Origin: Gammaproteobacteria bacterium
GTDB taxonomy: Bacteria > Pseudomonadota > Gammaproteobacteria > SZUA-152
DNA length: 64,000 bases
Assembly (NCBI GenBank): GCA_029882975.1
Contig: JAOUJW010000003.1
Location: 67,090-131,089, forward strand
Direction: 5' to 3'
In this document: piece after piece, positions 4,030 to 64,000 of the stretch
How positions within the stretch are numbered: position 1 is the stretch's first letter
How the letters are laid out: each line of letters begins with the position of its first letter
Made by a program: the position numbers and the translations under genes
The notes under the pieces: generated by a model
What the model saw: only the letters and a program-made list of their open reading frames with translations
Told to the model about the DNA's origin: nothing
Databases searched by the model: none

Positions 4030-4048
4030 TGAATCTGGGGGGCGGTTG

Positions 4049-4085: not shown

Positions 4086-4229
4086 TAACCTCCAGAGAGT
4101 AAGAGTAGATCCCGGTCAAGCCGGAACATTCCGTTCTTGGGTGTGTGGCAGCACCTAGAACAGGGTGCTAGTTTAGTGCCGGTGGGGTTACACAGAACTT
4201 ACATTTTCCACCAAAATTGACACCAAACG

Positions 4230-4883: not shown

Positions 4884-4893
4884 ACAACATCAC

Positions 4894-8433: not shown

Positions 8434-8467
8434 GGGTTTAAACGCTGCGTTACTACGGAGACCGACA

Positions 8468-10573: not shown

Positions 10574-10584
10574 TGGAGGCGGTG

Positions 10585-11175
10585 ATGCGGGCACAATTGT
10601 TAGTGAAAAGTTTGTTGGTTGCCTGTATCAGTCTGGGGCCAGGAATATTACCGGCGCAGACTGATCCGCCGGCATCACAGTGTGCAATGTGCCATGGCGT
10701 TGATGGAAACAGTCCCAGTGCGTCGGCCCCTTCGATTGCCGGTATTACCCCGTACTACTTTAAATACACCATGGACGCGTACAAAAACGGTGGACGCAAC
10801 TCAGACATTATGAAAATGTTTGCGGGGCAGTTATCCGCAGCCGATATAGAACAGTTGGCACTATTTTACAGCGGGCAAAAACCTCTGGCACGTCAGCAGG
10901 CCATGGATTCAAACAAGGCGGCGCAAGGGCAAGGTCTGCATCAGCGTTATTGTGAAAAATGCCATAGCAACAATGGTGGTGTGAGCATCGATGGTTACGG
11001 AGTCCTGGCGGGGCAATGGACAGATTATTTGCGTCTGACTCTCCAAGAGTACCTTGCCGGAAAAAGACGTACTAATGCTATGATGCTGACCAAGCTACGG
11101 AAAATGCAAAGGCTTGAAGGGGAAGGTGCGCTGGAACGGTTGATTCAATTTTATGCCGGGGCACAACCGGATTAG
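10585..11175 (+). CDS. Dihaem cytochrome c (c4-like)
   Basis: GGAGG lies 5-9 nt upstream of the ATG at 10585. Signal peptide present. Two CXXCH motifs (CAMCHGVDG, CEKCHSNNGG), each followed by a Met-containing segment. Coupled to the end of the MtrB-like gene. An alternative start at 10573 overlaps the stop codon. Confidence 0.7.
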   Translation: MRAQLLVKSLLVACISLGPGILPAQTDPPASQCAMCHGVDGNSPSASAPSIAGITPYYFKYTMDAYKNGGRNSDIMKMFAGQLSAADIEQLALFYSGQKPLARQQAMDSNKAAQGQGLHQRYCEKCHSNNGGVSIDGYGVLAGQWTDYLRLTLQEYLAGKRRTNAMMLTKLRKMQRLEGEGALERLIQFYAGAQPD

Positions 11176-11990
11176 GGAGTGACCCCCATTGCCATTTGTG
11201 CGGCCAATGAAGTGCCGTCCAAGTAGCTGCTACTGTGCATGCGGGAGTCTATCTCGCCCGTTACTTTTGCACTGATTCGCAACGTGGCGGTGCATTCGGC
11301 TTGGTCGCCAATAAAGTTAAGCGCTCCCGGCGGGATGGATAGCTGGTTACTGTTGTGAACGAATGTACTGTATTGAATGCAGGTACCGGATATACTGAGG
11401 AAATACGTGTCGGCCGTAGAGTCCCAACTGACATCAATGGTGTCATTGGCTACAGAAAACACCTGGCCGGAGGCGGGGCTGCTAATAACAGGGGTTGCCG
11501 GTATTGTGATATTCGCGGCCAAATTGTTGCCATTGGCTCGATGCAAGGTAATGGTATATTGGATTTCGCCGCTTTGATTACTGATCCATTGTGTGTCGTA
11601 CCGTGATGATCCAAATAAATATGTGTCTCTATATAAGCTCTGTTGGATGACGCCGTCAGACGCAATCAAGCTTTCGTTAGCACTTAAGTCCACATATCCG
11701 GTTTCATCAGGTTCACGATCGACTTTTAACAGGAGCCAATTCATCTCGTTTTTACCTTTCTTCCGATAGCGTAAATCGGCATCGAGACTAATGAGTAAAG
11801 GGGAAGCACCCGGGGTTTCATGGCGTGATGAAATAGAATACTCGGCGATGATTTCATGATCCTTCAGCGATTCAGAGGATTGGGTGTTAACATCGCAGCC
11901 GCAGAGTGCCAGTAAAGAGAGCAGGCCGAGGTGGAGACATATTTTCCCCCGGTAATCAAAAAAAACGGAAATGGGATGCCTATTGCTCAT
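11172..11990 (-). CDS. Hypothetical lipoprotein
   Basis: Lipobox LLALCGC. No recognisable catalytic motif. It overlaps the cytochrome c4 stop codon by 4 nt in convergent orientation. Confidence 0.45.
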   Translation of the reverse strand: MSNRHPISVFFDYRGKICLHLGLLSLLALCGCDVNTQSSESLKDHEIIAEYSISSRHETPGASPLLISLDADLRYRKKGKNEMNWLLLKVDREPDETGYVDLSANESLIASDGVIQQSLYRDTYLFGSSRYDTQWISNQSGEIQYTITLHRANGNNLAANITIPATPVISSPASGQVFSVANDTIDVSWDSTADTYFLSISGTCIQYSTFVHNSNQLSIPPGALNFIGDQAECTATLRISAKVTGEIDSRMHSSSYLDGTSLAAQMAMGVTP

Positions 11991-50832: not shown

Positions 50833-53361
50833 CTAATTGACGTTGATAATCGAAGAGGATTCTGCCAAAGCCCAGTTAACAAAAATGGGTTCCGGCAGAC
50901 CGAATTTATGGCCTTGAGCGAAATCTACGCCCATGGCCGCCAGTTTGTTGGAGGTTTTCTCGTTTTCTACACACTCAGCAATGGTTTTCATGCCCAACAA
51001 ATGCCCAATGTGGTTAACGGATTTAATGATTTCGCAGTTGACGGGGTTGTCTGTTAGATTGCTGACGAATTCTCCGTCTATTTTTAAATAGTCCACGGGC
51101 AGGTTGCTAAGGTAAGAGTAGGAACTCAGGCCTTTGCCAAAATCATCCAGAGCAAACTTAAATCCCAGTTGTTTGAGTTCTTTGATGAGCTTGGCGGCTT
51201 TTTCCAGATTTTCGATGGCAGCCGTCTCCGTGATTTCAAAGCAGACATTATCCGGGATCACGGGTGTACGTCGCAGTTCCTTGGTTATATATTCCAGTAA
51301 AGTACCGCTGTTCAGCGAAGTGCCGGACAGGTTGATGGCGTAACGATCGTTGCTGGAGAACTGAAAACACTGTTCAAATGCAGTTCGGATCACCCAGCGA
51401 TCCAGTATAGGCATGATATTGTATCGTTCGGCAGCGGGTATGAAGCTGCTGGGTAATATCAGTTCGTCTGTGTCATCACGCAGACGGATAAGTAACTCAT
51501 AATGGCGTTGGGTATTGCTCAATTGGTTCCGTAGTGGCACCACTGCTTGTCGATATAGGACAAAACGCCCTTCTTTGAATGCTTGGGTGAGTCGGGACAC
51601 CCACTGCATTTCACCGTGCTTGCGCATGAGTTCCTTGTCTTTATTGTGAAACACATGGAAGCGGTTACGCCCCATGTCTTTTGCTACGTAGCAGGCCATG
51701 TCGGCGGCGCTGAGCAAACTGACTATGCTCTCGGTTCCCTTGTGAATCTGCACTATGCCGATGCTGGTGCCCAGCTGGAAGCTAATGCCTTGCCAATTAA
51801 AACGAAAGTTTTTGAATTCATACAGCAGTTCCTTGGCGAAATTCAAGGCATAGTCCAGGTTGGAATTTTCCAGCAATATGCCGAACTCATCGCCCCCGAG
51901 CCGAGCCAAGGTATCCACATTGCGTAATTTTTGCTGCAACAGCGAAGTGACTTTGATTAAAAGGTGGTCGCCGGCATCGTGACCGCAGGTGTCATTGACG
52001 ATTTTAAACTGGTCCAAATCCAGGTAAAACAGGGAATGATGGCGGCCGTTGCGCTTGGCGCTGCTGATCGCGTATTTGAGTTTACGGTCAAACGCACGTC
52101 GATTAATCACTCCGGTGAGGGCATCGTGACTGGCTTGAAATGCCAATTTGCGGCTTAGATCGCGGGTACGGCTGACGTCACGAAACACAATAATGGCACC
52201 CAATAATTGTTCGTCACTACCTCGAATAGGTGCCACGCTTTCTTCAATTGGAGTGGTTTTGCCATCTCGACTGATGAGTATGCTGGATTCTGTGCTGCTG
52301 ACTTGGCGATTTTCGCTGATGCATTGGTCCACCAAGCCCTCAATTGGGGTCTTGGTTTGCTCGTCTTGAATTTTGAAAATATTGTTGAGTTTTTCTTGCT
52401 GTGCTTCTGCTGTGGTCCAGCCCGTGAGTTCTTCGGCAATGGGGTTTAAAAAACGGACATTACCAAAGGCGTCAGTGGTGATGACTCCGTCGCCGATGGA
52501 TTGCAGGGTAACCAATGCCCGATCTTTTTCTTCGTTTAGTTCCTGGCTATTGCGTTTGAGTTTGAATAACACCAGGACAGTGTACGTGAGCAAGGCAAGG
52601 GATAACACGTAGAGTAAAATCCGGCTGGCATTGGTGTCCGCGAGCCTTGCTTCGTGACGATCCAAATGGATTTGCTGCATGGATTTGGTGATATCCGCGA
52701 TGGGTAATTGCAGCATGTTATTAATGATGTTGCCTACCTCGGTTTGTTTTTCGCTGATAAATTCTATGTGTCGCACGACTTTGTTAATGTAAGGGGCGGT
52801 GGTTTTTGGCTTGTTGACTTGCCAGGTGGCGATCGCGTCCAATTCTGTATTTATGTCTGCTGCTAAAGTGCCGGAAAGTTGGCTGTTGAGTAAGGTGACG
52901 TGGGCTAATTTGTCCAGACGGCTACTGATTTTTTGGTAACCTCTTAAGAATCGCAAATGCGGTTTGGTGTTTTCCATTAGCGTAGGAAGACTGATCAAAG
53001 CGTTTTTCAACAAAGCATTGGCTGACTTGAATTGTTCCAAAAGTTGGATTTTTTTCATCAGGTTTTGGCTTAGAGCCCGGCTCATGGGGGCCAGAGAATC
53101 GGAAACCTGCTCAAGGGACTTGGCGTGGGTGCGCAGATCGGTAGCTATTTGTGACACTTTGTCATAATCGGAGTAGGCCGCAAAGCGGATCTTGAGCACT
53201 TCCTGGTTGATCTGCGAATCCTTGAGCTGGATATTGCGCAAATTTCCCAGAGAATGTTCATGCTGCTCCCAGTCCACCGTCTGCCGACTGATATAGACCG
53301 CGCTGACAGTCAGTATCAATGCCGAAAACGCAAGTATGACTCGTGAAAACGGTAATTTCAC
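50833..53361 (-). CDS. Membrane sensor PAS-GGDEF-EAL protein
   Basis: Two transmembrane segments flank a periplasmic region of roughly 250 aa. A PAS domain follows, then GGDEF (RLGGDEFGILL), then EAL (YELLIRL..CFEITETAAI..DDFGKGLSS). Its start overlaps the stop of the upstream ccp gene. Confidence 0.8.
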   Translation of the reverse strand: MKLPFSRVILAFSALILTVSAVYISRQTVDWEQHEHSLGNLRNIQLKDSQINQEVLKIRFAAYSDYDKVSQIATDLRTHAKSLEQVSDSLAPMSRALSQNLMKKIQLLEQFKSANALLKNALISLPTLMENTKPHLRFLRGYQKISSRLDKLAHVTLLNSQLSGTLAADINTELDAIATWQVNKPKTTAPYINKVVRHIEFISEKQTEVGNIINNMLQLPIADITKSMQQIHLDRHEARLADTNASRILLYVLSLALLTYTVLVLFKLKRNSQELNEEKDRALVTLQSIGDGVITTDAFGNVRFLNPIAEELTGWTTAEAQQEKLNNIFKIQDEQTKTPIEGLVDQCISENRQVSSTESSILISRDGKTTPIEESVAPIRGSDEQLLGAIIVFRDVSRTRDLSRKLAFQASHDALTGVINRRAFDRKLKYAISSAKRNGRHHSLFYLDLDQFKIVNDTCGHDAGDHLLIKVTSLLQQKLRNVDTLARLGGDEFGILLENSNLDYALNFAKELLYEFKNFRFNWQGISFQLGTSIGIVQIHKGTESIVSLLSAADMACYVAKDMGRNRFHVFHNKDKELMRKHGEMQWVSRLTQAFKEGRFVLYRQAVVPLRNQLSNTQRHYELLIRLRDDTDELILPSSFIPAAERYNIMPILDRWVIRTAFEQCFQFSSNDRYAINLSGTSLNSGTLLEYITKELRRTPVIPDNVCFEITETAAIENLEKAAKLIKELKQLGFKFALDDFGKGLSSYSYLSNLPVDYLKIDGEFVSNLTDNPVNCEIIKSVNHIGHLLGMKTIAECVENEKTSNKLAAMGVDFAQGHKFGLPEPIFVNWALAESSSIINVN

Positions 53362-54359
53362 AGCATTTGTCCGTTGTACTCCCCAGTGAGGGATTTTAGG
53401 AAACGTATAATCAAGTCCGTGTCCTGTTTTGGTATTGAGAGCCCCGGTGCTTGTCTCGACATGTGGTTTACCGCTCCTTCCAAGGTGGCTGCTGAGCCAT
53501 CGTGTAGATAGGGGGCGGTTAGGGCCACATTGCGCAGGCTGGGAACTCGAATTTTGTTATTTTTGCCCGAATTTCGATCCGTAAGGGTATTACCCAACGC
53601 CGGCGAAAATTTGTCAAGTGTAATTTCGGCCAGGGGAAGGGTCAGATTGCCACCCACATTAATACCTTGGTGGCAGACAATGCAACCGTGTTGTTTGAAT
53701 AGCCGGTATCCTGTTTTTTGTTTTTCATCAATGGCCTTGGGTTTTCCTCTAAGGTATTGATCAAAGGGAGAATTTGGCGTGCTGAGTGAGGCTACGTAAT
53801 AACTCAGGGCATCTTTGATGTTGGTGGCGGTAATACCATCACTATATAGAAGGTTAAATTTTCTCTCATAGCTGGGAATGTGGGCTAAGCGAGATGCCAG
53901 AATTTGCCAGGAATCGTTGAGTTCCAATAGAGCGTCATCCAATTGCTCGTCCAGGCTTTCGAACAATCCGTTCCAATAATAGCTGTCGTTGAATTTAACG
54001 TTAAAAATAGTGGGGGTATTGACCTCCTTACTTCTGGGCTCTTCGGGGTTAAGGGGGCGTGAGGTGGTTTTGCCATCACTACCTCCTTTGCTTAAGTCGT
54101 GGCAACTGCTGCAGGATTTACGCTCGTGACGGTCCAGTTGTTTTTCATGAAACAGAGATTCTCCCAGACTAAACTTTCGCCTGTCGATGTCTATTACCGG
54201 AATGGGTTGAACAGGTTCGTTAAGCAGCAACACGTCATGGTCATGTGCTGTAGCATTCTTGTACAGGGATAACATAATAACGGATGCGCAGACAGCAACC
54301 AGTGCGCAATAGGGCAAACTGCATTGACTCAATCCATGCATTATAGTCTTGGACCGCAT
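53358..54359 (-). CDS. Dihaem cytochrome c peroxidase (CCP/MauG family)
   Basis: Two CXXCH motifs (CSSCHDL, CIVCHQG). Family-typical length and signal peptide. The start may be further upstream, up to 54458. Confidence 0.75.
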   Translation of the reverse strand: MRSKTIMHGLSQCSLPYCALVAVCASVIMLSLYKNATAHDHDVLLLNEPVQPIPVIDIDRRKFSLGESLFHEKQLDRHERKSCSSCHDLSKGGSDGKTTSRPLNPEEPRSKEVNTPTIFNVKFNDSYYWNGLFESLDEQLDDALLELNDSWQILASRLAHIPSYERKFNLLYSDGITATNIKDALSYYVASLSTPNSPFDQYLRGKPKAIDEKQKTGYRLFKQHGCIVCHQGINVGGNLTLPLAEITLDKFSPALGNTLTDRNSGKNNKIRVPSLRNVALTAPYLHDGSAATLEGAVNHMSRQAPGLSIPKQDTDLIIRFLKSLTGEYNGQML

Positions 54360-54924
54360 TCTCTGTATCCCCCGCCGAGAATGAGTTGGGAGCTGTGTTA
54401 CAAGCGGCCTGAATAAAGGCCTTATCCTGTCCGGCTTCGTATTGGAATTGCTGAGCAATCTATGTAGGTATACTAATCCTTTTGGTCCCGAAATTCAAAA
54501 ATCCGTTTTCAGTGAGTGTTTCTTGTTCAAAAAGGTTGTATCTCTGTTTCGACTATTGCAGTGGTCAGGAAAGCAGCAACTGCTTAGTTTTGTTAAGTTA
54601 TGATTACCCTTGGATTGCCTAGCAACTGATCAGGTTAGGTAATATTACATATTCACATTTATAAGGTATTCGTTTTAGAATGAGTTGTGATGTCGGCAGG
54701 GCTGCCAAAGCAGGGAACTCCTGTGTTGTGTATCAAATGCAAGGATGTGTTTTTTCTTCTTTGTTGGATTCCGGTCGAACCCCTGTGTGACGTACGCATT
54801 TTTTGTGTAATACAGCACTATTTGTACAGCAATGGAAATGCTACGGTTTAGAATCTTTATTAGTGTGGCTGATTGGGTATTCTAAGCCGGCGCTTGGCGT
54901 TTCAAAAACAATCATAATAGGAGG

Positions 54925-55497
54925 ATGCAAATGAAATATAAAGGAGTATTGTTAAGTTCTGTATTGTTGGGGGCTGCCATGTTTTCGTTTGGTGCGGTTG
55001 CGGGTGAGGACTGTCCGGTGGGATTGGTCAGTGGAATGACATTAGATGACGAATTTGGTCCAGGCACACAGGCACTCACCCGGTGTTTACAAAAAACGAA
55101 AAAGGTAAAAGTGGTGTACCAGATACATAACACCTGTAAAGATTCAGGGTGCACCGCACCCTACGCTCTGGGGAATATCAAAAATGCTATTAAGGACTAT
55201 GAAATCACCCATGGCCTGGATAAGGACGACTATCAAATTGTGGCAATTGTGCACAGTGGTGGAACGGGTTTGGTCTTGAATAATAATGCGGCTAACCCCA
55301 ACGCCATTTCGAATCCTTTTCAGAAGGCTATGGAAGATGTCATCGGTCTGGGCGTAAAAGTCTATTATTGCCAAAACACAGCGCGTAAGAAAGGCGTAAA
55401 AACAGATCAGCTCATTGAGGGTGTGGGTTATGTGACTGCAGGTGTCACCGCTATCGCCGACCTTCAATTGAAAGGGTTCGCTTACGTTCAGCCATAA
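54925..55497 (+). CDS. Secreted DsrE/DsrF-like (YchN fold) protein
   Basis: Signal peptide present. Pattern VKVVYQIHN..C.., VAIVHSGG, VKVYYCQNTARKKGV.., YVTAGVTAIADLQLKGFAYVQP resembles DsrE-family proteins. Assignment by pattern only. Confidence 0.45.
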   Translation: MQMKYKGVLLSSVLLGAAMFSFGAVAGEDCPVGLVSGMTLDDEFGPGTQALTRCLQKTKKVKVVYQIHNTCKDSGCTAPYALGNIKNAIKDYEITHGLDKDDYQIVAIVHSGGTGLVLNNNAANPNAISNPFQKAMEDVIGLGVKVYYCQNTARKKGVKTDQLIEGVGYVTAGVTAIADLQLKGFAYVQP

Positions 55498-55591: not shown

Positions 55592-56104
55592 TTAAGGTAG
55601 GGTGTGTATGCTGCCGGCAGCTGTATCCAATCTCAGATTGTGTTCGCTGGCATACGCGTAAAGTTTCTTTTTCAATTGTTCTATTTTTGTGTTTTTCAGT
55701 AAGTGCATGCCGTTTTCTACGGCTGTTAAGGCTACGAGGCGGTTTAAGTCCAGGGGTTTGTCGCACGCGATGACCCACAGGGTTTCTTTCCCGTAGGGCG
55801 GCCCAACACTAAATTCAAAACCCGCATCCGCAGCCGGGACACTGATAAACTGAGCCGCTTTGTAGAAGGTTTCTGCTTGCTGTTGGTTGGGCAGGACCAG
55901 GGTCAGGTCACCGGCAGCGTCCTCATAAATTACGTGTAAATAAGCATCTTGATGCAAACTCACTAAAAAGGCAATGGTGTCGCCTTGGCGGAAAGTTTGC
56001 CGGTCGCCCAGATGGGTGGTAACACTCAGTTTGAACTCGGCACTTGCGCCCGTGTGGCTGTTCAACACCAGAGAGATAAGCAAGATGCGCCAAAACGGTT
56101 TCAT
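55592..56104 (-). CDS. Secreted DUF4384-domain protein
   Basis: Signal peptide (MKPFWRILLISLVLNSHTGASA). Pattern FRQGDTIAFLVSLHQDAYLHVIYEDAAGDLTLVLP typical of DUF4384. Last gene of the caspase cluster. Confidence 0.55.
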   Translation of the reverse strand: MKPFWRILLISLVLNSHTGASAEFKLSVTTHLGDRQTFRQGDTIAFLVSLHQDAYLHVIYEDAAGDLTLVLPNQQQAETFYKAAQFISVPAADAGFEFSVGPPYGKETLWVIACDKPLDLNRLVALTAVENGMHLLKNTKIEQLKKKLYAYASEHNLRLDTAAGSIHTLP

Positions 56105-56198
56105 TGGGTGTCGTTTAATTTTGTTTCCGTTCAACTTGTGAGTGCTTGTGTATTCGTGTAACCCCTAATGAGGTGGCTATACATGGGGGCAAGCAAAA

Positions 56199-56927
56199 TT
56201 AACGTAACCATAGACTGTGGTTGTAGCCGATAAAGAAACTGTTCAAGTTGTGTTTTTGAGAATCTCCGTTGTCGAACTCGTAGTGCTGTCGCTGGCGTTT
56301 GAAGCCAAAGCTCAAGCGGTTACGAGAGCTCAAGTTGACTGCGCCGCCCAGTTCAATGGCGTTGACACGGCCTTGCCCAACATCGGTTCCGTCCGTTTGC
56401 ACATTAAGAGGTACACTGCCTGCGGAACCGTAAAATATAAAATGCTTGCCGACAGGGACGTAACCGGATACTCCCAAACCCAGGCCGCTGGCCTGCATTT
56501 TGACAATTGGGTCTTCGTCTGTCCATTCATTGCTAATGGACTTGAGATCAGCAAAAATCGAAATATTTTTTACCACATAATAACCCAATACCAAGTCCAG
56601 CTCGTTGTGTTTGATGTTTTCATTCGCAGTGGCGGCAATAGTTGAGCCGTTTGCTAAAATGCGTTCCGGGGATCCGGTTTTAAATTGGTGGTTACCGCCT
56701 TGTAAATTAAAGCCAAAGTAAAATTGATCCCGTTGCAACATTAGATTGAGGCCGACGTGCCCGGAACGTTGTGCAAAACTGGTGTCGCTGTTTGTATTGT
56801 TGCCTGTCCAGTTGCTTGTCGCAAGTTTGGCGCCGAACGATAGGCTGACATCGGCGGCATAAACGCTGTTGACACCGAATGCAGTGATCAAGGCTATTAG
56901 GATGAGTAGTGTTGGTTTCATTTTCAT
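56199..56927 (-). CDS. Small outer-membrane beta-barrel protein (OmpA-like/OmpW-like barrel family)
   Basis: Signal peptide (LLILIALITAFGVNSVYA). Alternating hydrophobic beta-strand pattern with aromatic girdle residues. About 240 aa. Confidence 0.6.
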   Translation of the reverse strand: MKMKPTLLILIALITAFGVNSVYAADVSLSFGAKLATSNWTGNNTNSDTSFAQRSGHVGLNLMLQRDQFYFGFNLQGGNHQFKTGSPERILANGSTIAATANENIKHNELDLVLGYYVVKNISIFADLKSISNEWTDEDPIVKMQASGLGLGVSGYVPVGKHFIFYGSAGSVPLNVQTDGTDVGQGRVNAIELGGAVNLSSRNRLSFGFKRQRQHYEFDNGDSQKHNLNSFFIGYNHSLWLR

Positions 56928-56947
56928 GCTGGTTTACCGCGTTGAGA

Positions 56948-57988
56948 TTACAGGGTGGGAAGAGGTGTTACAAATCTGGGATTCAAAACTTTTTTGGGTT
57001 GGTTCGCTTTTGCGCTTGCTTTGCTGTCCGCTGAGGCATTGGTGGCAGCTGCGGTGGCGTTGTCGGCCTTGCCCTGCTCCACTTCCACCTGCACTTTCAC
57101 TTTGTCTGCGGGTACGCCGTCTACTTGGAGTTTCAGTTTAATAAATATAAATTCGCCCAGTTCATCACCGGCTCCTTGAAGTACGCCGCTTTCCGGAACC
57201 TGATCGACATTGTTGGCCACGGCTTTTTGAACATTGGCAGACAGCTCTGACACCGTCAGCATAGGCTTATCGTTGTTTTTTAACTCACTTAAGAGAAAAT
57301 ATGTAAAGGGAGAATGGCCGGACTGTTTATAATCGTCATCAACGTACTCGGCGCCTCCTGCCGCCATGATTTGCACGCTCTTCTTTTGCGCCACTTTTTG
57401 GTAAAACAATTCCGCGTTGTTTTCGGGGGGCAATCCGCGGGTGCCGGCGCGCAGCAAGGTGCCGCTGAAGCAGGAATCGGATATGAGTAAAGAGTGTTTA
57501 GCTCGTGATGCAATGGTGGTCATTTCATCACGGATGGTTGAGTTTCTTAAGAAAGTAGTGTGGTCCAGCCCCATTGCATCCGAGGGTATCCAATAGCCTT
57601 TATTGGTTTCCAGATCCATAAAGCCATGTCCGGCATAGTAAAGCAATACATTGTCATTAGGCAGTACACGTTGGGATAATTCCTGCAGTGCCAGCAGAAT
57701 GTCGCGCCTTCCGGCGTTTTCCAGCATTTTAACGTCGGTGAAACCGTAATGCTCTTCCAATAAGGTCTTGATGGTTCGGGCATCGGATACCGCCGTTTTC
57801 AATGATGGCCACTTTTTGTCGTTATAACGGTTGTTTCCTATGATTAATGCTCTATAGACACCTTGCTGTGCTTGTGGATCTACAGCAGGTGTTTTTTGCG
57901 TCATTGTGATGCCCCGGTTTTGTGCGGCCAGTGGCAAACTCAAGCAAAGGGTGAGTCCCAGGCATAACGCTTTAGCCGATTGATTCAT
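56948..57988 (-). CDS. Periplasmic caspase-domain (peptidase C14) protein
   Basis: Signal peptide (LCLGLTLCLSLPLAAQN). Caspase hallmarks: RALIIGNNRY, catalytic His in LLYYAGHG, catalytic Cys in LLISDSCFSG. Start taken at MNQSAKAL to leave an 8-nt gap after the anti-sigma gene. Confidence 0.75.
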   Translation of the reverse strand: MNQSAKALCLGLTLCLSLPLAAQNRGITMTQKTPAVDPQAQQGVYRALIIGNNRYNDKKWPSLKTAVSDARTIKTLLEEHYGFTDVKMLENAGRRDILLALQELSQRVLPNDNVLLYYAGHGFMDLETNKGYWIPSDAMGLDHTTFLRNSTIRDEMTTIASRAKHSLLISDSCFSGTLLRAGTRGLPPENNAELFYQKVAQKKSVQIMAAGGAEYVDDDYKQSGHSPFTYFLLSELKNNDKPMLTVSELSANVQKAVANNVDQVPESGVLQGAGDELGEFIFIKLKLQVDGVPADKVKVQVEVEQGKADNATAAATNASADSKASAKANQPKKVLNPRFVTPLPTL

Positions 57989-57996
57989 GTGTAACC

Positions 57997-58917
57997 TCAT
58001 TCTGTATGCTTGTTGATGACGAAGCCGCCATGGGTGTAAAAGGATTGGGCGTCCATGGTTTTTCCGGACAAAGTCCATTCATAACGGTATCCGGATACCG
58101 GTTTGTGATTGGAAAAAGTCACTTGGTTGACCTTGCTTTGTTTCTCGCCAATCAAAGTTCGTTCTTCACTTTTTACCAGTTGTAGTGTGATGTGGTAACT
58201 GTCAGCTTTAGCAACGGTAGGCCACTGCAGCACTAATGCGTTATCGCTTGCGCTTACCTGCATGGAGGCATAAGGCTTGCTGATTTTAGCGGCCTGGCCG
58301 AAAAATCCTATACCCGGTTTGGCGTGCTCCTGATAAAAGATCTTATCGCTGTCCTGATAAGTCGCAACGGTAAACGCCGTAACTTTAGCGAGTTGGGGCT
58401 CGGAATGTCCTGAGGGATTCTGCAGCGTCGGCACCAGCAGGACGGTTACAGCAATTAACGCTGTGGCTGCAAGCGCATTGGCCCACAGGGGTGGTCGAAG
58501 GCATAGAGCTTGTTTAAGTGTTTCCAATATTCCGGTACGCTGCGTGCCGGAATGTTGTTGAGGTTTAAGCGGGGTATGCGCCGCTAAAGCCCGTTTCATG
58601 GCTGTGCTATGGGATGCGTAGTGAAGGGCGGCTTTGAGTGTTGCCGGGTTTTTTTGTAACTGTTTCTGCACTTCCTCGTCGTCCAGAAGTTTGTCCACAT
58701 AAGCTTCTATGCGATATGTCGCCGTGTCATCCGGTTGTAAAGAACCATCTGATAGTCTGCTGCGGATGGCGGACAAGGTGCCGGCTTGTTGGCGACACCG
58801 GGGGCATTGGGCCAAGTGTACACTTAGCTTCTGGAAGTCCGGGTGGTCGGGTTGCATGACAAATCCGCTGAGGGATTCCAAGTCCGGGTGTTGTTCCTGT
58901 TGACTGGAGTTGTGCAT
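57997..58917 (-). CDS. zf-HC2 anti-sigma factor, single-pass membrane protein
   Basis: N-terminal zinc-finger anti-sigma motif (HLAQCPRCRQQ). One transmembrane helix (LWANALAATALIAVTVLLVP). Periplasmic C-terminal domain. Immediately downstream of the sigma-like gene. Confidence 0.65.
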   Translation of the reverse strand: MHNSSQQEQHPDLESLSGFVMQPDHPDFQKLSVHLAQCPRCRQQAGTLSAIRSRLSDGSLQPDDTATYRIEAYVDKLLDDEEVQKQLQKNPATLKAALHYASHSTAMKRALAAHTPLKPQQHSGTQRTGILETLKQALCLRPPLWANALAATALIAVTVLLVPTLQNPSGHSEPQLAKVTAFTVATYQDSDKIFYQEHAKPGIGFFGQAAKISKPYASMQVSASDNALVLQWPTVAKADSYHITLQLVKSEERTLIGEKQSKVNQVTFSNHKPVSGYRYEWTLSGKTMDAQSFYTHGGFVINKHTE

Positions 58918-59005
58918 ATCAGGTTCCTTTACCTACTATTTGCCGCTTCTGTTTGCATATGGTTTAAAAGACCCGAAAATTGATAATTTTTGAACAGAAT
59001 TCACT

Positions 59006-59917
59006 TTAACTGGACTCCATTAATTTTTCCAATTTGGCCAAGGTTTTACGTCGAAAATAGTATAGGTGCTGGCGATTGGTCTGTTGGGGTGGTACTCCAT
59101 CTTTAATACGAATATCCAGTTTTTCCAAAGCGTTCAGCACATCATTAGCATCTTGTTGGTCCATGACCATGGATTCCAGCACAAATTGTTCCGTCGGATT
59201 TAATAGCTGCCAAGCCTGGTGTAAGGCGTCGTGGTCAGCGGTTTGTTCCAGTGATGGGCTTGCATCAGCCGGTTCCATTTCAGTTTCATTACCGTCATAG
59301 TCCTGGCTTAGAGATATGGTGCTGGGTGGATTGAGCAAATGCAGACGATTTTTTTGCGTTAGGGTCACTATTATTTTGCGACAGAGGATCTCCGTATCCG
59401 CTTCACTTAAACTCAGTTTTTGTGCGATCAGGGCAATATTGTCTCCGCTGCGCAGGGCCAGGAATGCGCTGCCGGCCTGAGGACCCATGGATTGTATGTA
59501 GGTAGGAACGTGCACTTTGCGGCCGAAACGCCAGTTTTTCCAGCGTTCGTAGAACGGTAGGGAGTTGGCGATATGGTACATATAGTTGTTTAGGCTGGCG
59601 CCATTGTCACCACGGTATTGCTGTAATCTCTTGGCGTTGCTCAGGTCGTCCAGCATCCAGGCGTAGCTGGCGTTACCCCATTCACAAAGTGCGGCACCTG
59701 ATGCCGGTGTGCCCCAGGGTTTGGGTAAGGTGCAGGTATAGATAAATTGATTTTCCTTGCAGAAGCGTTTGCAAAAGCGGTCCGTTTGAAAACGGATAAT
59801 GGGGTCCAGGAACTGATTAACGCGGCTGCGCGCCACCGGATCACCGGCGGCGGCTTGCTGAGCCAGCAAAATCTGCTCGTCGCGGTTTGAGAGAGGTTCT
59901 TGATTACCGGTGTCCAA
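59006..59917 (-). CDS. ECF-type sigma-70 family protein with Cys-rich insertion
   Basis: Region-2-like segments (DEQILLAQQAAAGDPVARSRVNQFL, YMYHIANSLPFYERWKNWR). Region-4-like helix-turn-helix (LNPTEQFVLESMVMDQQDANDVLNALEKL..RKTLAKLEKL). At 303 aa it is longer than standard ECF factors, owing to a CKRFCKEN..YTCTL..LCEW insert. Confidence 0.55.
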   Translation of the reverse strand: MDTGNQEPLSNRDEQILLAQQAAAGDPVARSRVNQFLDPIIRFQTDRFCKRFCKENQFIYTCTLPKPWGTPASGAALCEWGNASYAWMLDDLSNAKRLQQYRGDNGASLNNYMYHIANSLPFYERWKNWRFGRKVHVPTYIQSMGPQAGSAFLALRSGDNIALIAQKLSLSEADTEILCRKIIVTLTQKNRLHLLNPPSTISLSQDYDGNETEMEPADASPSLEQTADHDALHQAWQLLNPTEQFVLESMVMDQQDANDVLNALEKLDIRIKDGVPPQQTNRQHLYYFRRKTLAKLEKLMESS

Positions 59918-60003
59918 AACGTGGGTTCCGCCATGAATAGTGAAATTATTGGCAACTCATAGAGTCGGCACAAGTTTCTATTATAGTCGGTGTGGTAAAA
60001 GGC

Positions 60004-61938
60004 TCATGGATTGTATAGAAACCATCCGGATACCACTCCTTGTTCCACTTTCACTGCCAGTCCGTAGTGGTCATAGGCCAGATATTCGCCACTGGACAGA
60101 TGAATCTGTCGGTTGGGAATTCCCAAAGCTTTTACCGGTCGGTCGGCGTTGTCTCCAATGGCAATTCGGTTCAGGACTTTGGAAGAACTGCTGTCCAGCC
60201 AGGCGTTGACTATCGTGGCGTCCGGTCCCACGATAAACCGACTGCCATCCTGGAAACGCAATACTCGAAATTGCTCGCCTTCTATCCACAAGTCCGTGCT
60301 TTTGGCCTGAGCCAATTTTCCGGAGCTGAGGTTGTCCCCTAAACGCAATCCTTTTATGGTTGGGGCGTGTTGCACGGGTTTTTGCTTATGGGAGGTTTGT
60401 AATTGTCCAAGAGCTAACCGGAATAACAAGCTGTTTCCTGATGATTTGGCTTGATTGGCCAGTTGATTCCAAACCTGGGTGGCTTTGTCTGCTTTATTTT
60501 GGTGTCGAGCCAGTGCGGCGTAGTTATAGTAGGCGCTAAACAACAATAAGTTAGGACTCATGCTACCGCTTGTGTGTTGAGGCTTGCCCGGGCGGTTTTG
60601 ATCAGTGTATTTGAGTACGCGCTTGAATAGCTTGGTGGCTCTGGTGCTATTACCTTCTAAGGCATTGGTCATTGCAAGCAATAGATCTGTGCTACCAGAG
60701 GCTTTAAAAAGAGGTATGGTTTTGCCCTGGATAACACCCCTGGCCATATAAGTATTACCCTGTAGCAGATAGGTAATGGCTAACAAGTGGTAGCCGGCGG
60801 GATGATCCGGTTCCAATTTTATCGCTTTTTCGAAGTAGTGGATGCTTTGTCGGGCGTTTTCATCCAGTTGTTTTTTCAACTGCTGCAGAACCGCAGGGCC
60901 ACCACGTTTGAGTACGGCTTGCCGGGGGGTGGCTTCCGCGTCCGTGTCCAATAACAGGGGGTAGTAAAAGTCCGGTTGTTTTAGAAATCCGTCCTGAATC
61001 ATGCGTTTTTGAATTTTCAGAGCTTCTGCCAGGTAGGTTAAACCCAGTGCAGACAGCACCGCTCGGGAAGGGTACTGGCGCCCATAAGCCGTGAAGTACC
61101 TGCGGGCCTCGAGGTGGTTCGCGGCAATAAAGTTTTGTACACCCATTTCATACAGCATGGCTTGTGATGCGGCATTGTGCAATTGTGCGCCGGCCCGTAG
61201 AGCGCGCGAGTGCGCTTGTTTGCAGGCTTTTGATGCGGCGGAATCGTTATCTGAAACTATACAGGAGTTGCCCCAAATATTTTCCACCCAAGCGGTGAAA
61301 AAATCTTTTTTATCCAGAATCTGGTAAGGATCGTAACCCACGCTGGCCATTAGGATGAGGCCGTCGTGATCCGCCTGGGCCTCTTTTTGTTCAATGTCGT
61401 TCATGAGTTTGGAATCGACATTCAGTCCCCGCAGCATTTTGCGACGCAGTTCCGGGCTTTGGTTGCCAATCAGACGGAAAAATCGTTGATGCCATAAATC
61501 GTCGGCGCGTTGATGCGACAACTCATGGGATAGCACAAAGGCTAGCAAATGGCCGGCCCGCTGCTTGCCGAAACTCAAACAGGTGTTAATGGCTTCCAGG
61601 CTGAGCAAAATATTGCCATCCGCCAGTGATGCGGCCCAGGGCCCGGCGCTGGAGTCCACTACATAAAGGCTGGGCTCCAGGCGGGAACTGTCCCAGGAAC
61701 GCAACAGGACGGAAAAAATATTTTGAGCATATTGTGCCAGGGAATTATTTTGTGGGTCGACCGTATGGGGTTTCCAGTAATTAATGGATTGTGTGGGGTC
61801 ATCCGGTGGTGCCAGCGTTTTGCTATGAGCTGTGGGAAGGTACAGGCAAAAAACCAGCAGTAGTGAAATCGAGAACGATAAAAGCGAGCGGGCGGAAAAC
61901 GGTAAAGAAGTGGCTTGGTGTGCCGGCTTTTGGTTCAT
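60004..61938 (-). CDS. Secreted BepA-like M48 zinc metalloprotease with TPR repeats and an extra C-terminal domain
   Basis: Signal peptide present. HEXXH in FVLSHELSHQ with downstream EAQADHDGLILMASVGYDP (M48/BepA signature). Central TPR-like repeats. About 150-aa C-terminal domain of unknown function. Confidence 0.65.
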   Translation of the reverse strand: MNQKPAHQATSLPFSARSLLSFSISLLLVFCLYLPTAHSKTLAPPDDPTQSINYWKPHTVDPQNNSLAQYAQNIFSVLLRSWDSSRLEPSLYVVDSSAGPWAASLADGNILLSLEAINTCLSFGKQRAGHLLAFVLSHELSHQRADDLWHQRFFRLIGNQSPELRRKMLRGLNVDSKLMNDIEQKEAQADHDGLILMASVGYDPYQILDKKDFFTAWVENIWGNSCIVSDNDSAASKACKQAHSRALRAGAQLHNAASQAMLYEMGVQNFIAANHLEARRYFTAYGRQYPSRAVLSALGLTYLAEALKIQKRMIQDGFLKQPDFYYPLLLDTDAEATPRQAVLKRGGPAVLQQLKKQLDENARQSIHYFEKAIKLEPDHPAGYHLLAITYLLQGNTYMARGVIQGKTIPLFKASGSTDLLLAMTNALEGNSTRATKLFKRVLKYTDQNRPGKPQHTSGSMSPNLLLFSAYYNYAALARHQNKADKATQVWNQLANQAKSSGNSLLFRLALGQLQTSHKQKPVQHAPTIKGLRLGDNLSSGKLAQAKSTDLWIEGEQFRVLRFQDGSRFIVGPDATIVNAWLDSSSSKVLNRIAIGDNADRPVKALGIPNRQIHLSSGEYLAYDHYGLAVKVEQGVVSGWFLYNP

Positions 61939-62086
61939 GAGTGTAACCCCGTGATCAATTCATTTGCAGTGGATACACCACCTCTGCAGTTAAAGAGACT
62001 GCGAAACCTGCCGCATTTGAAAATTTTCTGCATATTTTTATCAGCACATCGAGGGGAGTCGATCTCGGGATTATTATCGTTATTAT

Positions 62087-62806
62087 TCAATTGCTTATGG
62101 TTCCGTCTAGGTATTGGCGGCGCAGTGTGTGGGGTAGTTTTTCGATCGCATAGCGCAGCATGGTTCTGGGCATATTATGATATCGTCGGCACAAAAGGCT
62201 CTGCAGTTGATCATCGTCTCGCTTACCGATTTCCCGCAACATCCACCCCACGGCTTTATGTATTACGTCCTCGGGGTCATGTAAAAATTGCTCGGTTAAT
62301 TGCAAAGTATCAGTAAATTGCCCCGCTTGTATAAATCGATAGATCGCGATGACGGCAATGCGGTGTTCCCACAGGCTTTTCGATTGAGCCAGTGTGTACA
62401 ACACACGACGTTGTGTTTTAGAAAATAACAACAAATAGTCACCATCTATTTTATGCGCAGAGACATCTACCAGGTCCCAGTTGTTCACCTGCTGTCGGTG
62501 CTCCCTATATAATGCGTAAACCCTTTGTTTGTATTTTCTTATATGATAGTGCTGGATCAGTAATACTAATGCTGGAAAACGCTCCTCATGATACCTGGAG
62601 TATAGCAAGCTCTGAACCCTGTCCAGGGACAGTTGTTTGTTCTGCTTGGCAAAGCGGCGAATCTGCGGCACCGTAATACCCGGAAAACAGTCGCCATGAC
62701 CGTTCTCACCCGGCGCGGTTTTAAAAAACCGTTGCTGTTGTTGGGCTTTTTCCGAGTCTTTGAGCTGACGAAATTGATGCTGAATGGTTGTTATTAAGTC
62801 AGGCAT
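62087..62806 (-). CDS. DNA alkylation repair protein (AlkD/AlkC-like HEAT-repeat family)
   Basis: Length and helical-repeat pattern (..QQRFFKTAPGE..GITVPQIRRFAKQN..WDLVDVSAHKI..) resemble the DNA alkylation repair enzyme family. Confidence 0.5.
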   Translation of the reverse strand: MPDLITTIQHQFRQLKDSEKAQQQQRFFKTAPGENGHGDCFPGITVPQIRRFAKQNKQLSLDRVQSLLYSRYHEERFPALVLLIQHYHIRKYKQRVYALYREHRQQVNNWDLVDVSAHKIDGDYLLLFSKTQRRVLYTLAQSKSLWEHRIAVIAIYRFIQAGQFTDTLQLTEQFLHDPEDVIHKAVGWMLREIGKRDDDQLQSLLCRRYHNMPRTMLRYAIEKLPHTLRRQYLDGTISN

Positions 62807-62949
62807 GTTCAGAGTTCCTCAGATTCTCATCAAAACGGAATTATTTCACATTTTAACGCTTAGCTTTCAAATGGAAGCCCGTTTGTCGTCTGTTCATAGC
62901 AGTAACTCAAGGATTTAATCCAAATAAAATGTCTAACTGGAGAATAGCA

Positions 62950-64000
62950 ATGTCAAGCGTGAAAACATTTAATCCCAAACGTATCTTTAATAGAAAACTG
63001 TTGTTGCTGCCTTTAGCGGTATCCGCATTGGTGTTTTCCGGGTGCGGTACCGAGCCGAGTAGTTCCGCGGATGGTCAAGCCCAGTTTTTGCAGATGGGCT
63101 TGCCCGACAGTATGACCGGAGGCCAGGTGCAAATGGCAGTCGGTGCGCATTCGCAAGGGCAGCCATGCGCATACATAGGGGTTGGCAATGATGATCCTTT
63201 TAAGAATGGTTACAATATGAGTAAAATGCTGGTTTCTGCTGTGGCCACCTGGACCTGTATTACAGATACCTTGATTCATGTCTCGGACATTTATGAGCAC
63301 GACGGTGTAGTCCATCCTACGGATAACGATCCCGCATCCGGTACTTATCGGTCCCAGGACCCAACTCATTACAGTATCACTGATGATTCAGGCACACAGG
63401 TTAGTATTCGCCTCTATTACGGTTATGATCACAGTACGCCGCCGGTTCCGGGAGTGGCTGATCCTGGTTTTTATATTTCCTGGAACACCGCGGACAGCGG
63501 TGATATCGAGGGCAAGTTGATTGTCGATGGTTTAGCGATCAACTCCGATAACCGAAAAACGGACGACCCTACCATGATGCGCTTGGATTTTAATTACACC
63601 GGTGTACAAAAACAGGCCACCATGTATTTAGCATTTGATGCTGGAAATCGTTGGGCGGATGGGTTTCGCATCGAGGTCACAAAAGATCTGACGGCTCCGG
63701 ACGGACAAGTGTTTTTGGCCAGAGGTATGATAGAAATGAAACAACAGTTTCTGCCGGTAGCCGGTATTTCTGAATTACCGGTTTTGCAAATGGTATCGGT
63801 ATCAAACGCATTGGGACGAGGCGCCACAGTTGCGAATTTTGAAGATGTTTCCTTGCCTTTGATGTTGAACCCGCAAACCAATAACAATCTAGGTGACTAT
63901 TTGTTTTCAAAAAAAGATCAGTACTATTTTCGCGGTGACGGTTCTTGGGAATATATACAAAAGGATATTTCAACCGCCCAGTATCGAGGTAACCGCAACA
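62950..64000 (+). CDS. Hypothetical lipoprotein (3' partial, runs off window end)
   Basis: GGAG lies 8 nt upstream of the ATG at 62950. Lipobox LLPLAVSALVFSGC. The frame stays open to position 64000. Confidence 0.5.
   Translation, partial: MSSVKTFNPKRIFNRKLLLLPLAVSALVFSGCGTEPSSSADGQAQFLQMGLPDSMTGGQVQMAVGAHSQGQPCAYIGVGNDDPFKNGYNMSKMLVSAVATWTCITDTLIHVSDIYEHDGVVHPTDNDPASGTYRSQDPTHYSITDDSGTQVSIRLYYGYDHSTPPVPGVADPGFYISWNTADSGDIEGKLIVDGLAINSDNRKTDDPTMMRLDFNYTGVQKQATMYLAFDAGNRWADGFRIEVTKDLTAPDGQVFLARGMIEMKQQFLPVAGISELPVLQMVSVSNALGRGATVANFEDVSLPLMLNPQTNNNLGDYLFSKKDQYYFRGDGSWEYIQKDISTAQYRGNRN

What the first reader, a model, noticed from the sequence alone, without database searches (positions are those of the whole stretch)
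55592..61938. ECF sigma / anti-sigma / periplasmic caspase / OM barrel / DUF4384 operon headed by a BepA-like M48-TPR protease
Six co-directional minus-strand genes are separated by 8-90 nt gaps. In order they encode: a secreted M48 HEXXH protease with TPR; an ECF-like sigma factor carrying a Cys-rich insert; a zf-HC2 single-pass anti-sigma factor; a signal-peptide peptidase-C14 caspase protein with an intact His (YYAGHG) / Cys (DSCFSG) dyad; an outer-membrane beta-barrel; and a secreted DUF4384 protein. An envelope-located caspase-fold protease directly wired to a dedicated sigma/anti-sigma pair suggests a regulated proteolytic signalling or cell-fate module rather than housekeeping. Caspase-DUF4384 co-occurrence is known from domain databases. 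Coupling of the pair to an ECF/anti-sigma pair plus a BepA-like protease is, to my knowledge, not functionally characterised. The window also encodes a second clan-CD protease, the CHAT protein at 772-3138.
Basis: partly seen in the sequence, partly recalled or inferred. Interest (0 to 1): 0.8.

Follow-up and report, generated by a model that had tools for sequence, protein, structure and literature searches.

The report
Divergent sigma factor controlling periplasmic caspase module
A seven-gene cassette conserved in about 70 bacterial species pairs an unrecognised, very divergent sigma factor and its membrane anti-sigma factor with a periplasmic caspase-like protease, a zinc protease, an outer-membrane barrel and two secreted proteins, all driven by one dedicated promoter motif; its function has not been studied.

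Summary
The six minus-strand genes are real and their domain calls largely hold. D is a Peptidase_C14 with its His/Cys dyad aligned to yeast metacaspase. F is DUF4384. C is a single-pass ZAS anti-sigma factor. E is an OMP beta-barrel and A is an HExxH...ExxAD zincin with TPRs; both calls rest on family-level evidence. B matches no Pfam sigma model, but its fold matches only sigma factors, and remote relatives hit Sigma70_r4. It appears to have three domains plus four invariant cysteines, so it is not a classic two-domain ECF.

New results:
- The order A-B-C-D-E-F is conserved in nearly all of 68 related loci (Gammaproteobacteria, Desulfobacterota), and rearranged in some Nitrospirota.
- One promoter-like motif, TTTCAAAT-N15-GTCTnnT, sits upstream of A, C and G in about 45-50 loci each. 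Its core occurs exactly three times in the 64-kb window, at those three places.

So this is three transcription units under one dedicated sigma, not a single operon. The trigger is unknown. I favour proteolysis of the anti-sigma factor by the module's own proteases, but that is inference. All members are annotated as hypothetical, and two targeted literature searches found no paper on such a module.

The parts
60004..61938 (-). A: secreted HExxH zincin (M48-like), TPR region and a conserved C-terminal domain of about 120 aa. First gene of the A-B unit.
   Evidence: ORF. Hydrophobic N-terminal segment 19-37. H138, E139, H142 and E186, A189, D190 are invariant in 41 sequences. 37 of 41 members give weak Peptidase_M48 hits and most give TPR hits. 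The PDB profile search finds only TPR proteins.
59006..59917 (-). B: divergent sigma-70-family factor. Sigma2 carries a four-Cys insertion (C49, C53, C62, C78). A helical middle domain spans about 139-190, followed by an acidic linker and sigma4.
57997..58917 (-). C: single-pass ZAS-type anti-sigma factor. Cytoplasmic H10/H34xxxC38xxC41 domain, TM 144-162, periplasmic domain of about 145 aa that looks fn3-like.
   Evidence: Profile match to ChrR 2q1z_B, E 1.1e-3, with the four zinc ligands aligned.
56948..57988 (-). D: periplasmic metacaspase-like Peptidase_C14 with signal peptide, intact His/Cys dyad, a variable linker and a conserved extreme C-terminal hexapeptide (VTPLPTL-COOH).
   Evidence: Pfam 1.9e-24. 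Alignment to Yca1 4f6o/4f6p. Signal peptide. ATG at 57988 preceded by GAGG; an alternative ATG at 58000 overlaps the stop codon of C. C-terminal motif conserved in about 45 loci.
56199..56927 (-). E: small outer-membrane beta-barrel protein with signal peptide.
   Evidence: 27 of 42 family members hit OMP_b-brl, best 3.1e-11. Signal peptide.
55592..56134 (-). F: secreted DUF4384 protein.
   Evidence: Pfam DUF4384 4.7e-19. Hydrophobic N-terminus. No PDB relative by sequence.
62950..64000 (+). G: lipoprotein (lipobox VFSGC) of a family with no Pfam domain, divergently oriented. Cut by the window end; the full length is 455 aa (P0121).
61996..62020 (-). P_A: predicted sigma-B-dependent promoter (TCAAAT-N15-GTCT), 57 nt upstream of the ATG of A.
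   Evidence: The same motif with exactly 16-nt spacing lies upstream of A in 48 loci.
58969..58993 (-). P_C: predicted promoter in the B-C gap, driving C-D-E-F.
   Evidence: Present upstream of C in 50 loci. The B-C gap is 30 nt or less in only 2% of loci.
62867..62891 (+). P_G: predicted promoter for lipoprotein G. It is retained even though a DNA-alkylation-repair gene has been inserted between A and G.
   Evidence: Motif present in 37 of 41 G-adjacent loci.

Best explanation
This is a self-contained, autoregulated envelope module. B is a highly divergent sigma-70-family factor. C, a single-pass zinc-binding (ZAS) anti-sigma factor, holds B at the inner membrane through its cytoplasmic domain.

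When B is freed, it directs RNA polymerase to three dedicated promoters with the consensus tTTTCAAAT-N15-GTCTnnT:
- P_A expresses the secreted M48-like/TPR zincin A together with B itself (positive feedback).
- P_C expresses the anti-sigma factor C (negative feedback) with the periplasmic metacaspase-like protease D, the outer-membrane barrel E and the DUF4384 protein F.
- P_G expresses lipoprotein G.

Shown computationally: the folds and domains, the strict synteny, and the three-site motif. Inferred: that B is the factor reading the motif, and that C binds B.

Favoured trigger (inferred, about 35% on its own): an envelope signal makes one of the module's own periplasmic proteases cut the periplasmic domain of C. 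I favour D because its gene abuts C. This would start regulated intramembrane proteolysis as in DegS/RseA. A would then act as a quality-control or counter-acting protease for the barrel and lipoprotein. The conserved C-terminal peptide of D may dock to a partner such as the TPR domain of A.
For: - Anti-sigma identity of C: ZAS motif conserved; zf-HC2 hit in 34 of 44 members; ChrR match with the four zinc ligands aligned; one TM segment.
- Regulon: TCAAA-N16-GTC occurs 188 times at spacing 16, against 17-46 at other spacings. The excess of 74 at spacing 12 is coding conservation of G. 143 of the sites fall upstream of A (48), C (50) or G (45). Positions outside the search pattern are also conserved at 74-94%. 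The core occurs exactly 3 times in the 64-kb window, all at the predicted places, against 0.57 expected.
- Independent check: the Reinekea forsetii locus, not used for motif discovery, also has exactly 3 occurrences at the same three places.
- Synteny: A-F in the same order in about 50 loci from Gammaproteobacteria, Nitrospirota and Desulfobacterota. Flanking genes are not conserved.
- Protease competence: the D dyad aligns to Yca1, and both S1-pocket Asp positions are kept. HExxH and ExxAD are invariant in A.
- Gene coupling: C-D and D-E gaps are short (medians 20 and 12 nt).
- Precedent for a caspase-fold protease controlling a sigma factor: Craspase cleaves Csx30, which binds RpoE, and some Csx30 C-terminal domains are DUF4384 (PMC9825189 and PMC9729208, listed).
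- A sister-family sigma-like gene is followed by a 234-aa ORF and a trypsin-like protease.
Against: - No experiment exists. B matches no sigma HMM directly.
- The model of B has pTM 0.49 and rests on 39 sequences.
- The motif could in principle be read by another factor.
- Nothing computed here shows that D or A cleaves C. No conserved basic cleavage site was identified in the juxtamembrane part of C. The proteases could be pure outputs.
- One locus (L024) has A, B, C and F but no D or E nearby, so the caspase is not absolutely required next to the sigma pair.
- In the Nitrospirota variants the barrel E is not detected.
Confidence: 0.55

Rival explanations
1. Specialised envelope quality-control regulon. 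The sigma/anti-sigma pair senses stress by a generic route, for example the housekeeping site-1/site-2 proteases or oxidation or zinc loss at the ZAS domain. A and D would be outputs only. A would act like BepA in assembling or degrading the barrel E and lipoprotein G, and D would process or clear periplasmic substrates.
For: The A family has M48-like motifs plus TPRs, the architecture of BepA. In E. coli, bepA belongs to the sigmaE regulon (my own knowledge). All regulon members found are envelope proteins. Both C and B have conserved Cys/His metal sites that could sense redox state directly.
Against: The detected regulon is only the module itself. Three sites in 64 kb are all local, which is unusual for a general stress response. 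The C-D genes are tightly adjacent. The module is rare and patchy across phyla.
Confidence: 0.25
2. Cell-fate or defence module. On phage attack or envelope damage, the sigma factor induces a burst of periplasmic caspase and accessory proteins. These dismantle envelope proteins and cause growth arrest or death, as in abortive infection.
For: Caspase-fold proteases are common in conflict systems. D hits NCBIfam caspase_w_EACC1 at 3e-24, below its cut-off, and a generic PADLOC caspase model at 1.5e-12. The phyletic distribution is patchy and the flanks are variable. The Reinekea copy lies next to Fic and AlpA genes. A CHAT-TPR protein lies elsewhere in the window.
Against: None of the other six proteins matches any PADLOC model. 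No nuclease, NTPase or pore-forming effector is present. Identity within the family is high (45-70%) and order is fixed, without the domain shuffling typical of defence systems. No consistent mobile-element neighbours were found.
Confidence: 0.1
3. Surface-protein biogenesis machine. The clan-CD protease D would act as a processing or transpeptidase enzyme, as PorU, legumain or GPI8 do, on lipoprotein G or on F. These would then be exported or displayed through barrel E with help from the TPR protein A. The sigma pair would only set expression level.
Against: The structural matches are generic beta-sheet similarities. No sorting signal was identified in G or F. Metacaspase-type S1 residues suggest ordinary Arg/Lys endopeptidase activity.
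Confidence: 0.07
4. B is not a sigma factor but an ordinary HTH transcription activator, and the conserved motif is its operator.
Against: The sigma2 domain is matched as well as sigma4. Whole-chain Foldseek hits are exclusively sigma factors. The motif is two asymmetric blocks at a fixed 16-nt spacing, oriented toward each gene, with a GTC -10-like element and no sigma-70 promoter alongside. The partner is a ZAS anti-sigma domain.
Confidence: 0.03

Closest known systems
ECF sigma / ZAS anti-sigma pairs (R. sphaeroides sigmaE-ChrR, M. tuberculosis SigL-RslA, B. subtilis SigW-RsiW)
   Same: Co-encoded sigma and single-pass anti-sigma factor with an H-x3-C-x2-C zinc domain. The C-family profile matches ChrR, RslA and RsiW. 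The promoter is autoregulated and has a GTC-type -10 element. Sigma2 and sigma4 of B superpose on ECF domains.
   Different: B is 303 aa and has an extra helical domain between sigma2 and sigma4. It carries a four-Cys insertion in sigma2 and escapes all Pfam and NCBIfam sigma models. The anti-sigma gene has its own promoter, separate from the sigma gene. The -35 element is TTTCAAAT rather than the usual ECF 'AAC' type (the ECF consensus is from my own knowledge).
E. coli sigmaE-RseA-DegS/RseP envelope stress pathway and its regulon member BepA
   Same: A membrane anti-sigma factor with a periplasmic domain, periplasmic proteases, outer-membrane protein themes, and an M48+TPR protease under sigma control (pathway details from my own knowledge).
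   Different: The candidate site-1 protease here has a caspase fold (C14), not a PDZ serine protease. The regulon appears confined to the module. No RseB or RseP is encoded locally.
Type III-E CRISPR 'Craspase' (Csx29 TPR-CHAT cleaves Csx30, which binds RpoE and Csx31)
   Same: A caspase-fold protease coupled to control of a sigma factor. TPR and DUF4384 domains recur: some Csx30 C-terminal domains are DUF4384 (PMC9825189, PMC9729208).
   Different: Craspase is cytoplasmic and RNA-guided. Here the protease is periplasmic, there is no CRISPR component, the protease is C14 rather than CHAT, and the sigma inhibitor is a ZAS membrane protein.
Orthocaspases and metacaspases (Peptidase_C14; yeast Yca1)
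   Same: p20-like domain with the His/Cys dyad and both acidic S1-pocket positions.
   Different: D is exported by a signal peptide, lacks a recognisable p10 or extra domain, ends in a conserved hexapeptide, and is fixed in a sigma-controlled gene cassette.
CorE-type ECF sigma factors with a Cys-rich domain (recalled from memory, not tested here)
   Same: A sigma factor carrying conserved cysteines that may bind metal.
   Different: The CorE Cys-rich domain is a C-terminal extension and CorE has no anti-sigma partner. In B the four Cys lie in an insertion within sigma2, and a ZAS anti-sigma factor is present.

Membership tests
Sigma-70 family (B) | Sigma2 domain fold | tested here: met
Sigma-70 family (B) | Sigma4 HTH domain fold | tested here: met
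Sigma-70 family (B) | Sequence match to Sigma70_r2 / r4 profiles | tested here: not met
   0 of 39 family members hit any sigma model at E up to 10. There is only a transitive link: 12 of 34 remote sister-family members hit Sigma70_r4_2, best 1.6e-8.
Sigma-70 family (B) | Cognate two-block promoter upstream of its own gene | tested here: met
   TTTCAAAT-N15-GTCTnnT upstream of the A-B unit in 48 loci, plus C and G. That B reads it is inferred.
Sigma-70 family (B) | Binds core RNA polymerase and directs initiation | not testable with these tools
   Needs biochemistry.
ECF (group 4) sigma factors (B) | Only sigma2 and sigma4 joined by a short linker | tested here: not met
   The model has an extra four-helix domain at about 139-190 and a disordered acidic linker at 200-218. 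Whole-chain Foldseek alignments of about 300 columns go to three-domain sigmas: SigB, sigmaS, sigma32, FliA.
ECF (group 4) sigma factors (B) | Adjacent cognate anti-sigma factor | tested here: met
   C lies immediately downstream in 55 loci.
ZAS anti-sigma factors (C) | H-x3-C-x2-C plus an upstream fourth ligand | tested here: met
   H10, H34, C38 and C41 are conserved in at least 90%. They align to the ChrR zinc ligands.
ZAS anti-sigma factors (C) | Pfam zf-HC2 above the gathering score | tested here: inconclusive
   The window copy scores 16.2 bits against a cut-off of 22.2. 34 of 44 homologues hit, best E 1.1e-6.
Peptidase C14 (D) | Domain match and catalytic His/Cys at the aligned positions | tested here: met
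   87.1 bits against a cut-off of 21.4. Dyad aligned to Yca1 4f6o and its C276A mutant 4f6p. Conserved in 46 homologues.
Peptidase M48 / BepA-like (A) | HExxH plus a downstream Glu in ExxAD | tested here: met
   H138, E139, H142, E186, A189 and D190 are invariant in 41 sequences. That ExxAD is the M48 third-ligand motif is from my own knowledge.
Peptidase M48 / BepA-like (A) | Significant profile match to Peptidase_M48 or to solved M48 structures | tested here: inconclusive
   37 of 41 members give weak hits, best E 4.5e-4. The window copy gives none. The family profile finds only TPR proteins in the PDB. No structure model of A was made.
Peptidase M48 / BepA-like (A) | C-terminal TPR domain | tested here: met
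   TPR_17 at 1.1e-6 in the window copy; TPR_2 in 38 of 41 members.
OMP_b-brl outer-membrane barrels (E) | Profile match and signal peptide | tested here: met
   27 of 42 homologues hit, best 3.1e-11; the window copy is itself below detection. Signal peptide.
DUF4384 (F) | Pfam PF14326 above the gathering score | tested here: met
   68.7 bits against a cut-off of 27.
Known anti-phage defence systems (PADLOC) | Components match models of a described system | tested here: not met
   Only a generic caspase model hits D. A, B, C, E, F and G have no hit.

The most novel reading that the evidence does not exclude
A periplasmic metacaspase-like protease is the signal-activated site-1 protease for a ZAS anti-sigma factor. 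It would release a previously unclassified three-domain sigma factor that binds metal through four cysteines. That would be a stand-alone bacterial pathway from a caspase to transcription across the inner membrane, a periplasmic counterpart of Craspase-Csx30-RpoE. The DUF4384 protein, barrel and lipoprotein would serve as sensor or substrate partners.
Probability: 0.3. Interest if true: 0.8.

Novelty: new variant of a known kind. Interest (0 to 1): 0.66.

Why it matters
- It defines a sigma-70-family clade that current profile libraries miss entirely. Only 130 clusters at 50% identity were found among 1.84 billion representative proteins.
- It supplies a predicted promoter and a complete minimal regulon for that clade, so the function can be tested directly.
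- It gives bacterial C14 'orthocaspases', whose physiological roles are largely unknown, a concrete and conserved genetic circuit in the periplasm.
- It suggests that caspase-fold proteases, DUF4384 domains and sigma-factor control are a recurring combination beyond type III-E CRISPR.
- The named species Reinekea forsetii carries the full cassette. I recall cultured strains of this species but did not check; if so, it offers an experimental entry point.

Tried and rejected
Only fold comparison and a transitive sister-family link worked.
- The A-family profile against the PDB found only TPR proteins, not BepA.
- The A-B intergenic region was examined for a promoter upstream of B. It is often only 1-20 nt long and has no shared motif.
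- An apparent second motif spacing, TCAAA-N12-GTC with 74 hits, turned out to be coding conservation of the C-terminus of G.
- Sigma-70 promoter and terminator scans over the region were no better than shuffled controls.
- Literature searches for ECF + anti-sigma + Peptidase_C14, and for orthocaspase + sigma factor + periplasm, returned no papers.
- Context look-ups for the sister-family proteins mostly hit contigs too short to be informative.


Full report
**Observation.** The longest D ORF overlaps C. The likely start is the ATG at 57988, which is preceded by GAGG. An alternative ATG at 58000 overlaps the stop codon of C as ATGA. The gaps are 86, 88, 8, 20 and 64 nt. The window matches at 100% identity proteins of a Gammaproteobacteria metagenome-assembled genome (B = OEZ68_03685).

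**Domain checks on the window copies.** Pfam confirms Peptidase_C14 in D (1.9e-24), DUF4384 in F (4.7e-19) and a TPR in A. It gives only a sub-threshold zf-HC2 hit in C and nothing for B or E. NCBIfam agrees. I therefore tested A, B, C and E at the family level.

**Family-level checks.**
- B has 476 homologues at 55-71% identity. All are annotated 'hypothetical' and none has a Pfam domain.
- Using 68 related loci from species-representative genomes, I extracted homologues of all six proteins.
- C: H10 and H34-x3-C38-x2-C41 are conserved in at least 90% of sequences. 34 of 44 members hit zf-HC2 (best 1e-6). The family profile matches the anti-sigma domain of ChrR (2q1z, E 1.1e-3) with all four zinc ligands aligned, and weakly matches RslA, DdvA and RsiW. 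One hydrophobic segment (144-162) divides a cytoplasmic N-terminal domain from a periplasmic domain of about 145 aa that looks fn3-like.
- E: 27 of 42 members hit OMP_b-brl (best 3e-11).
- A: HELxHQ (138-143) and EAQAD (186-190) are invariant. 37 of 41 members give weak Peptidase_M48 hits (best 4.5e-4). The window copy gives none, and the family profile finds only TPR proteins in the PDB. 'M48-like zincin with TPR' is reasonable; 'BepA-like' is not established.
- D: it aligns to yeast metacaspase Yca1 with YYAGHG on the catalytic His and DSCFSG on the catalytic Cys. The C276A mutant entry 4f6p shows Ala at that position. The Asp two residues before the Cys, and the Asp in 'SDA', are also kept. 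From my own knowledge these correspond to the acidic S1 pocket of metacaspases, which would predict Arg/Lys specificity.
- A, D, E and F have N-terminal export signals. B has none.

**Is B a sigma factor?**
- No sequence method says so: Pfam on 39 members, phmmer and a profile against the PDB, and hhalign against E. coli FliA and RpoE all fail.
- The AlphaFold model has pLDDT 82.7. It retrieves only sigma factors with Foldseek: SigB, sigmaS, sigma32, FliA and primary sigmas, with alignments of about 300 columns.
- An exhaustive HMMER search of 1.84 billion representative proteins finds only 130 clusters. It does not reach canonical sigma factors. It does reach a sister family of 320-345-aa proteins at 15-23% identity, and 12 of 34 of those hit Sigma70_r4_2 (best 1.6e-8). 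That gives a transitive sequence link.
- B therefore belongs to the sigma-70 family but is not a classic ECF. It has an extra helical domain at about 139-190, an acidic disordered linker, and an insertion in sigma2 with four invariant cysteines: C49, C53, C62, C78.

**Synteny and boundaries.**
- tblastn shows A-B-C-D-E-F in that order in essentially every locus with enough sequence. The loci come from Gammaproteobacteria (Chromatiales, Acidiferrobacteraceae, Thiohalomonadales, Agarilytica, the Olavius Gamma 3 symbiont), Desulfobacterota and Nitrospirota.
- Three Nitrospirota loci have the order A-D...B-C...F. One locus lacks D and E nearby.
- Genes flanking the window cassette are not conserved elsewhere.
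- Clustering all ORFs revealed a seventh conserved gene, G. It encodes a lipoprotein of about 460 aa and is divergently transcribed upstream of A in 41 of 66 loci.
- The window has G too, from 62950 on the + strand with lipobox VFSGC, running off the window end. A DNA-alkylation-repair gene (62087-62806) separates it from A.

**A dedicated promoter.**
- Aligning the regions upstream of A revealed a striking motif. TCAAA-N16-GTC occurs 188 times in the loci at spacing 16, against 17-46 at other spacings. The 74 hits at spacing 12 are coding conservation of G.
- 143 of these sites fall in three places: upstream of A (48 loci), upstream of C in the B-C gap (50 loci), and on the opposite strand upstream of G (45 loci).
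- Positions outside the search pattern are also conserved at 74-94%. The consensus is an A/T-rich stretch, then tTTTCAAAT-N15-GTCTnnT, ending about 40 nt before the start codon.
- In the whole 64-kb window TCAAA-N16-GTCT occurs exactly three times, against 0.57 expected: 61996-62020 (-), 58969-58993 (-) and 62867-62891 (+). All three are at the predicted positions.
- The Reinekea forsetii locus was not used for discovery. It carries the full G | A-F cassette and again has exactly three matches at the same three places.
- The B-C gap is almost never short (30 nt or less in 2% of loci). A-B, C-D and D-E gaps often are.
- The motif is asymmetric, has fixed spacing, points toward each gene, and has a GTC-type -10 like ECF promoters. 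No sigma-70-type promoter stands out.
- The simplest reading is three transcription units read by B: A-B, C-D-E-F, and G.

**Mechanism.**
- Shown computationally: the identities of the seven proteins, their predicted compartments, their fixed linkage, and the three-site motif.
- Inferred from how sigma/ZAS pairs work: C sequesters B, and free B activates the three promoters. This would give positive feedback through B, negative feedback through C, and expression of the envelope proteins.
- The trigger is unknown. I favour cleavage of the periplasmic domain of C by D or A. The module encodes two competent periplasmic proteases and D abuts C. A sister-family sigma-like gene is followed by a small ORF and a trypsin-like protease. 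There is also precedent for a caspase-fold protease controlling a sigma factor: Craspase cleaves Csx30, which binds RpoE, and some Csx30 C-terminal domains are DUF4384 (PMC9825189, PMC9729208).
- Nothing computed here demonstrates that cleavage.
- Rivals are: an output-only envelope quality-control regulon, a defence or cell-death module (only a generic PADLOC caspase hit), a surface-protein processing machine, and B acting as an ordinary activator.

**Novelty.** Every family member carries a 'hypothetical' annotation. The B and G families have no Pfam model. Two targeted literature searches found no paper on such a module. The architecture is a new variant of sigma/anti-sigma envelope signalling. 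It combines a profile-invisible, apparently three-domain, four-Cys sigma factor with a periplasmic C14 protease, an M48-like/TPR zincin, a barrel, a DUF4384 protein and a lipoprotein, all under one private promoter.

**Caveats.**
- Everything is computational.
- The model of B rests on 39 sequences and has pTM 0.49.
- Motif discovery and most of the counting used the same loci; the window-wide count and the Reinekea locus are the only independent checks.
- The regulon outside this 64-kb window was not examined.

Noticed in passing
It encodes a lipoprotein of a family with no Pfam domain, is divergently oriented, and carries the same promoter motif. The window end cuts it; the full length is 455 aa (P0121).
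   Followed up: yes
window 62087-62806 (-): A DNA_alkylation repair gene (Pfam 7e-56) sits between A and G in this genome only. No other locus has it there. It looks like an insertion into the divergent promoter region that left both promoters intact.
   Followed up: partly
window 56948-56970 (-), C-terminus of D; same in about 45 loci: The extreme C-terminus of the caspase is a conserved hexapeptide, [VIL]-P-[ILVM]-P-[TS]-[LF]-COOH. It follows a variable low-complexity linker, often with a basic residue a few positions upstream. It looks like a tethered docking peptide; its partner is unknown (the TPR domain of A is a guess).
   Followed up: partly
window 59684-59773 (-), B residues 49-78: Four invariant cysteines (C-x3-C-x8-C-x15-C) lie in a beta-hairpin insertion within sigma2. 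Some sister-family members have a different Cys pattern and others have none. The metal (Zn or Fe-S) and any sensing role are unknown.
   Followed up: partly
proteins P0285-P0338; context: A remote sister family of sigma-like proteins of 320-345 aa also lacks annotation. One member is followed by a 234-aa ORF and a trypsin-like protease. This hints at a wider 'divergent sigma + small partner + periplasmic protease' theme.
   Followed up: partly
P0012, P0082, P0091: Three distinct B homologues (55-61% identity to the window copy) are all labelled Kaarinaea lacus. Some genomes may therefore carry several paralogous cassettes, which raises the question of promoter cross-talk.
   Followed up: no
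L066 6622-14675; also L063 and L065: Nitrospirota variants are rearranged: A, a longer C14 protein (537 aa), B, C, a 244-aa ORF, then a 723-aa protein with DUF4384 at its C-terminus. No E-type barrel was detected.
   Followed up: partly
L069 (Reinekea forsetii GCA_018860385.1) 3618-11395: The complete G | A-B-C-D-E-F cassette with all three promoter motifs occurs in a named species. It lies next to Fic and AlpA-like genes.
   Followed up: partly
It has no promoter motif and no evident link to the module. The upstream ORF at 65-730 has no Pfam hit.
   Followed up: partly
window 45669-47777 (-), 50833-53361 (-), 53358-54458 (-), 54925-55497 (+): The neighbourhood encodes two GGDEF-EAL proteins (one with a receiver domain, one with DAHL-PAS), a di-haem cytochrome c peroxidase and a DsrE-like protein. 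None of these is conserved next to the cassette in other genomes.
   Followed up: no
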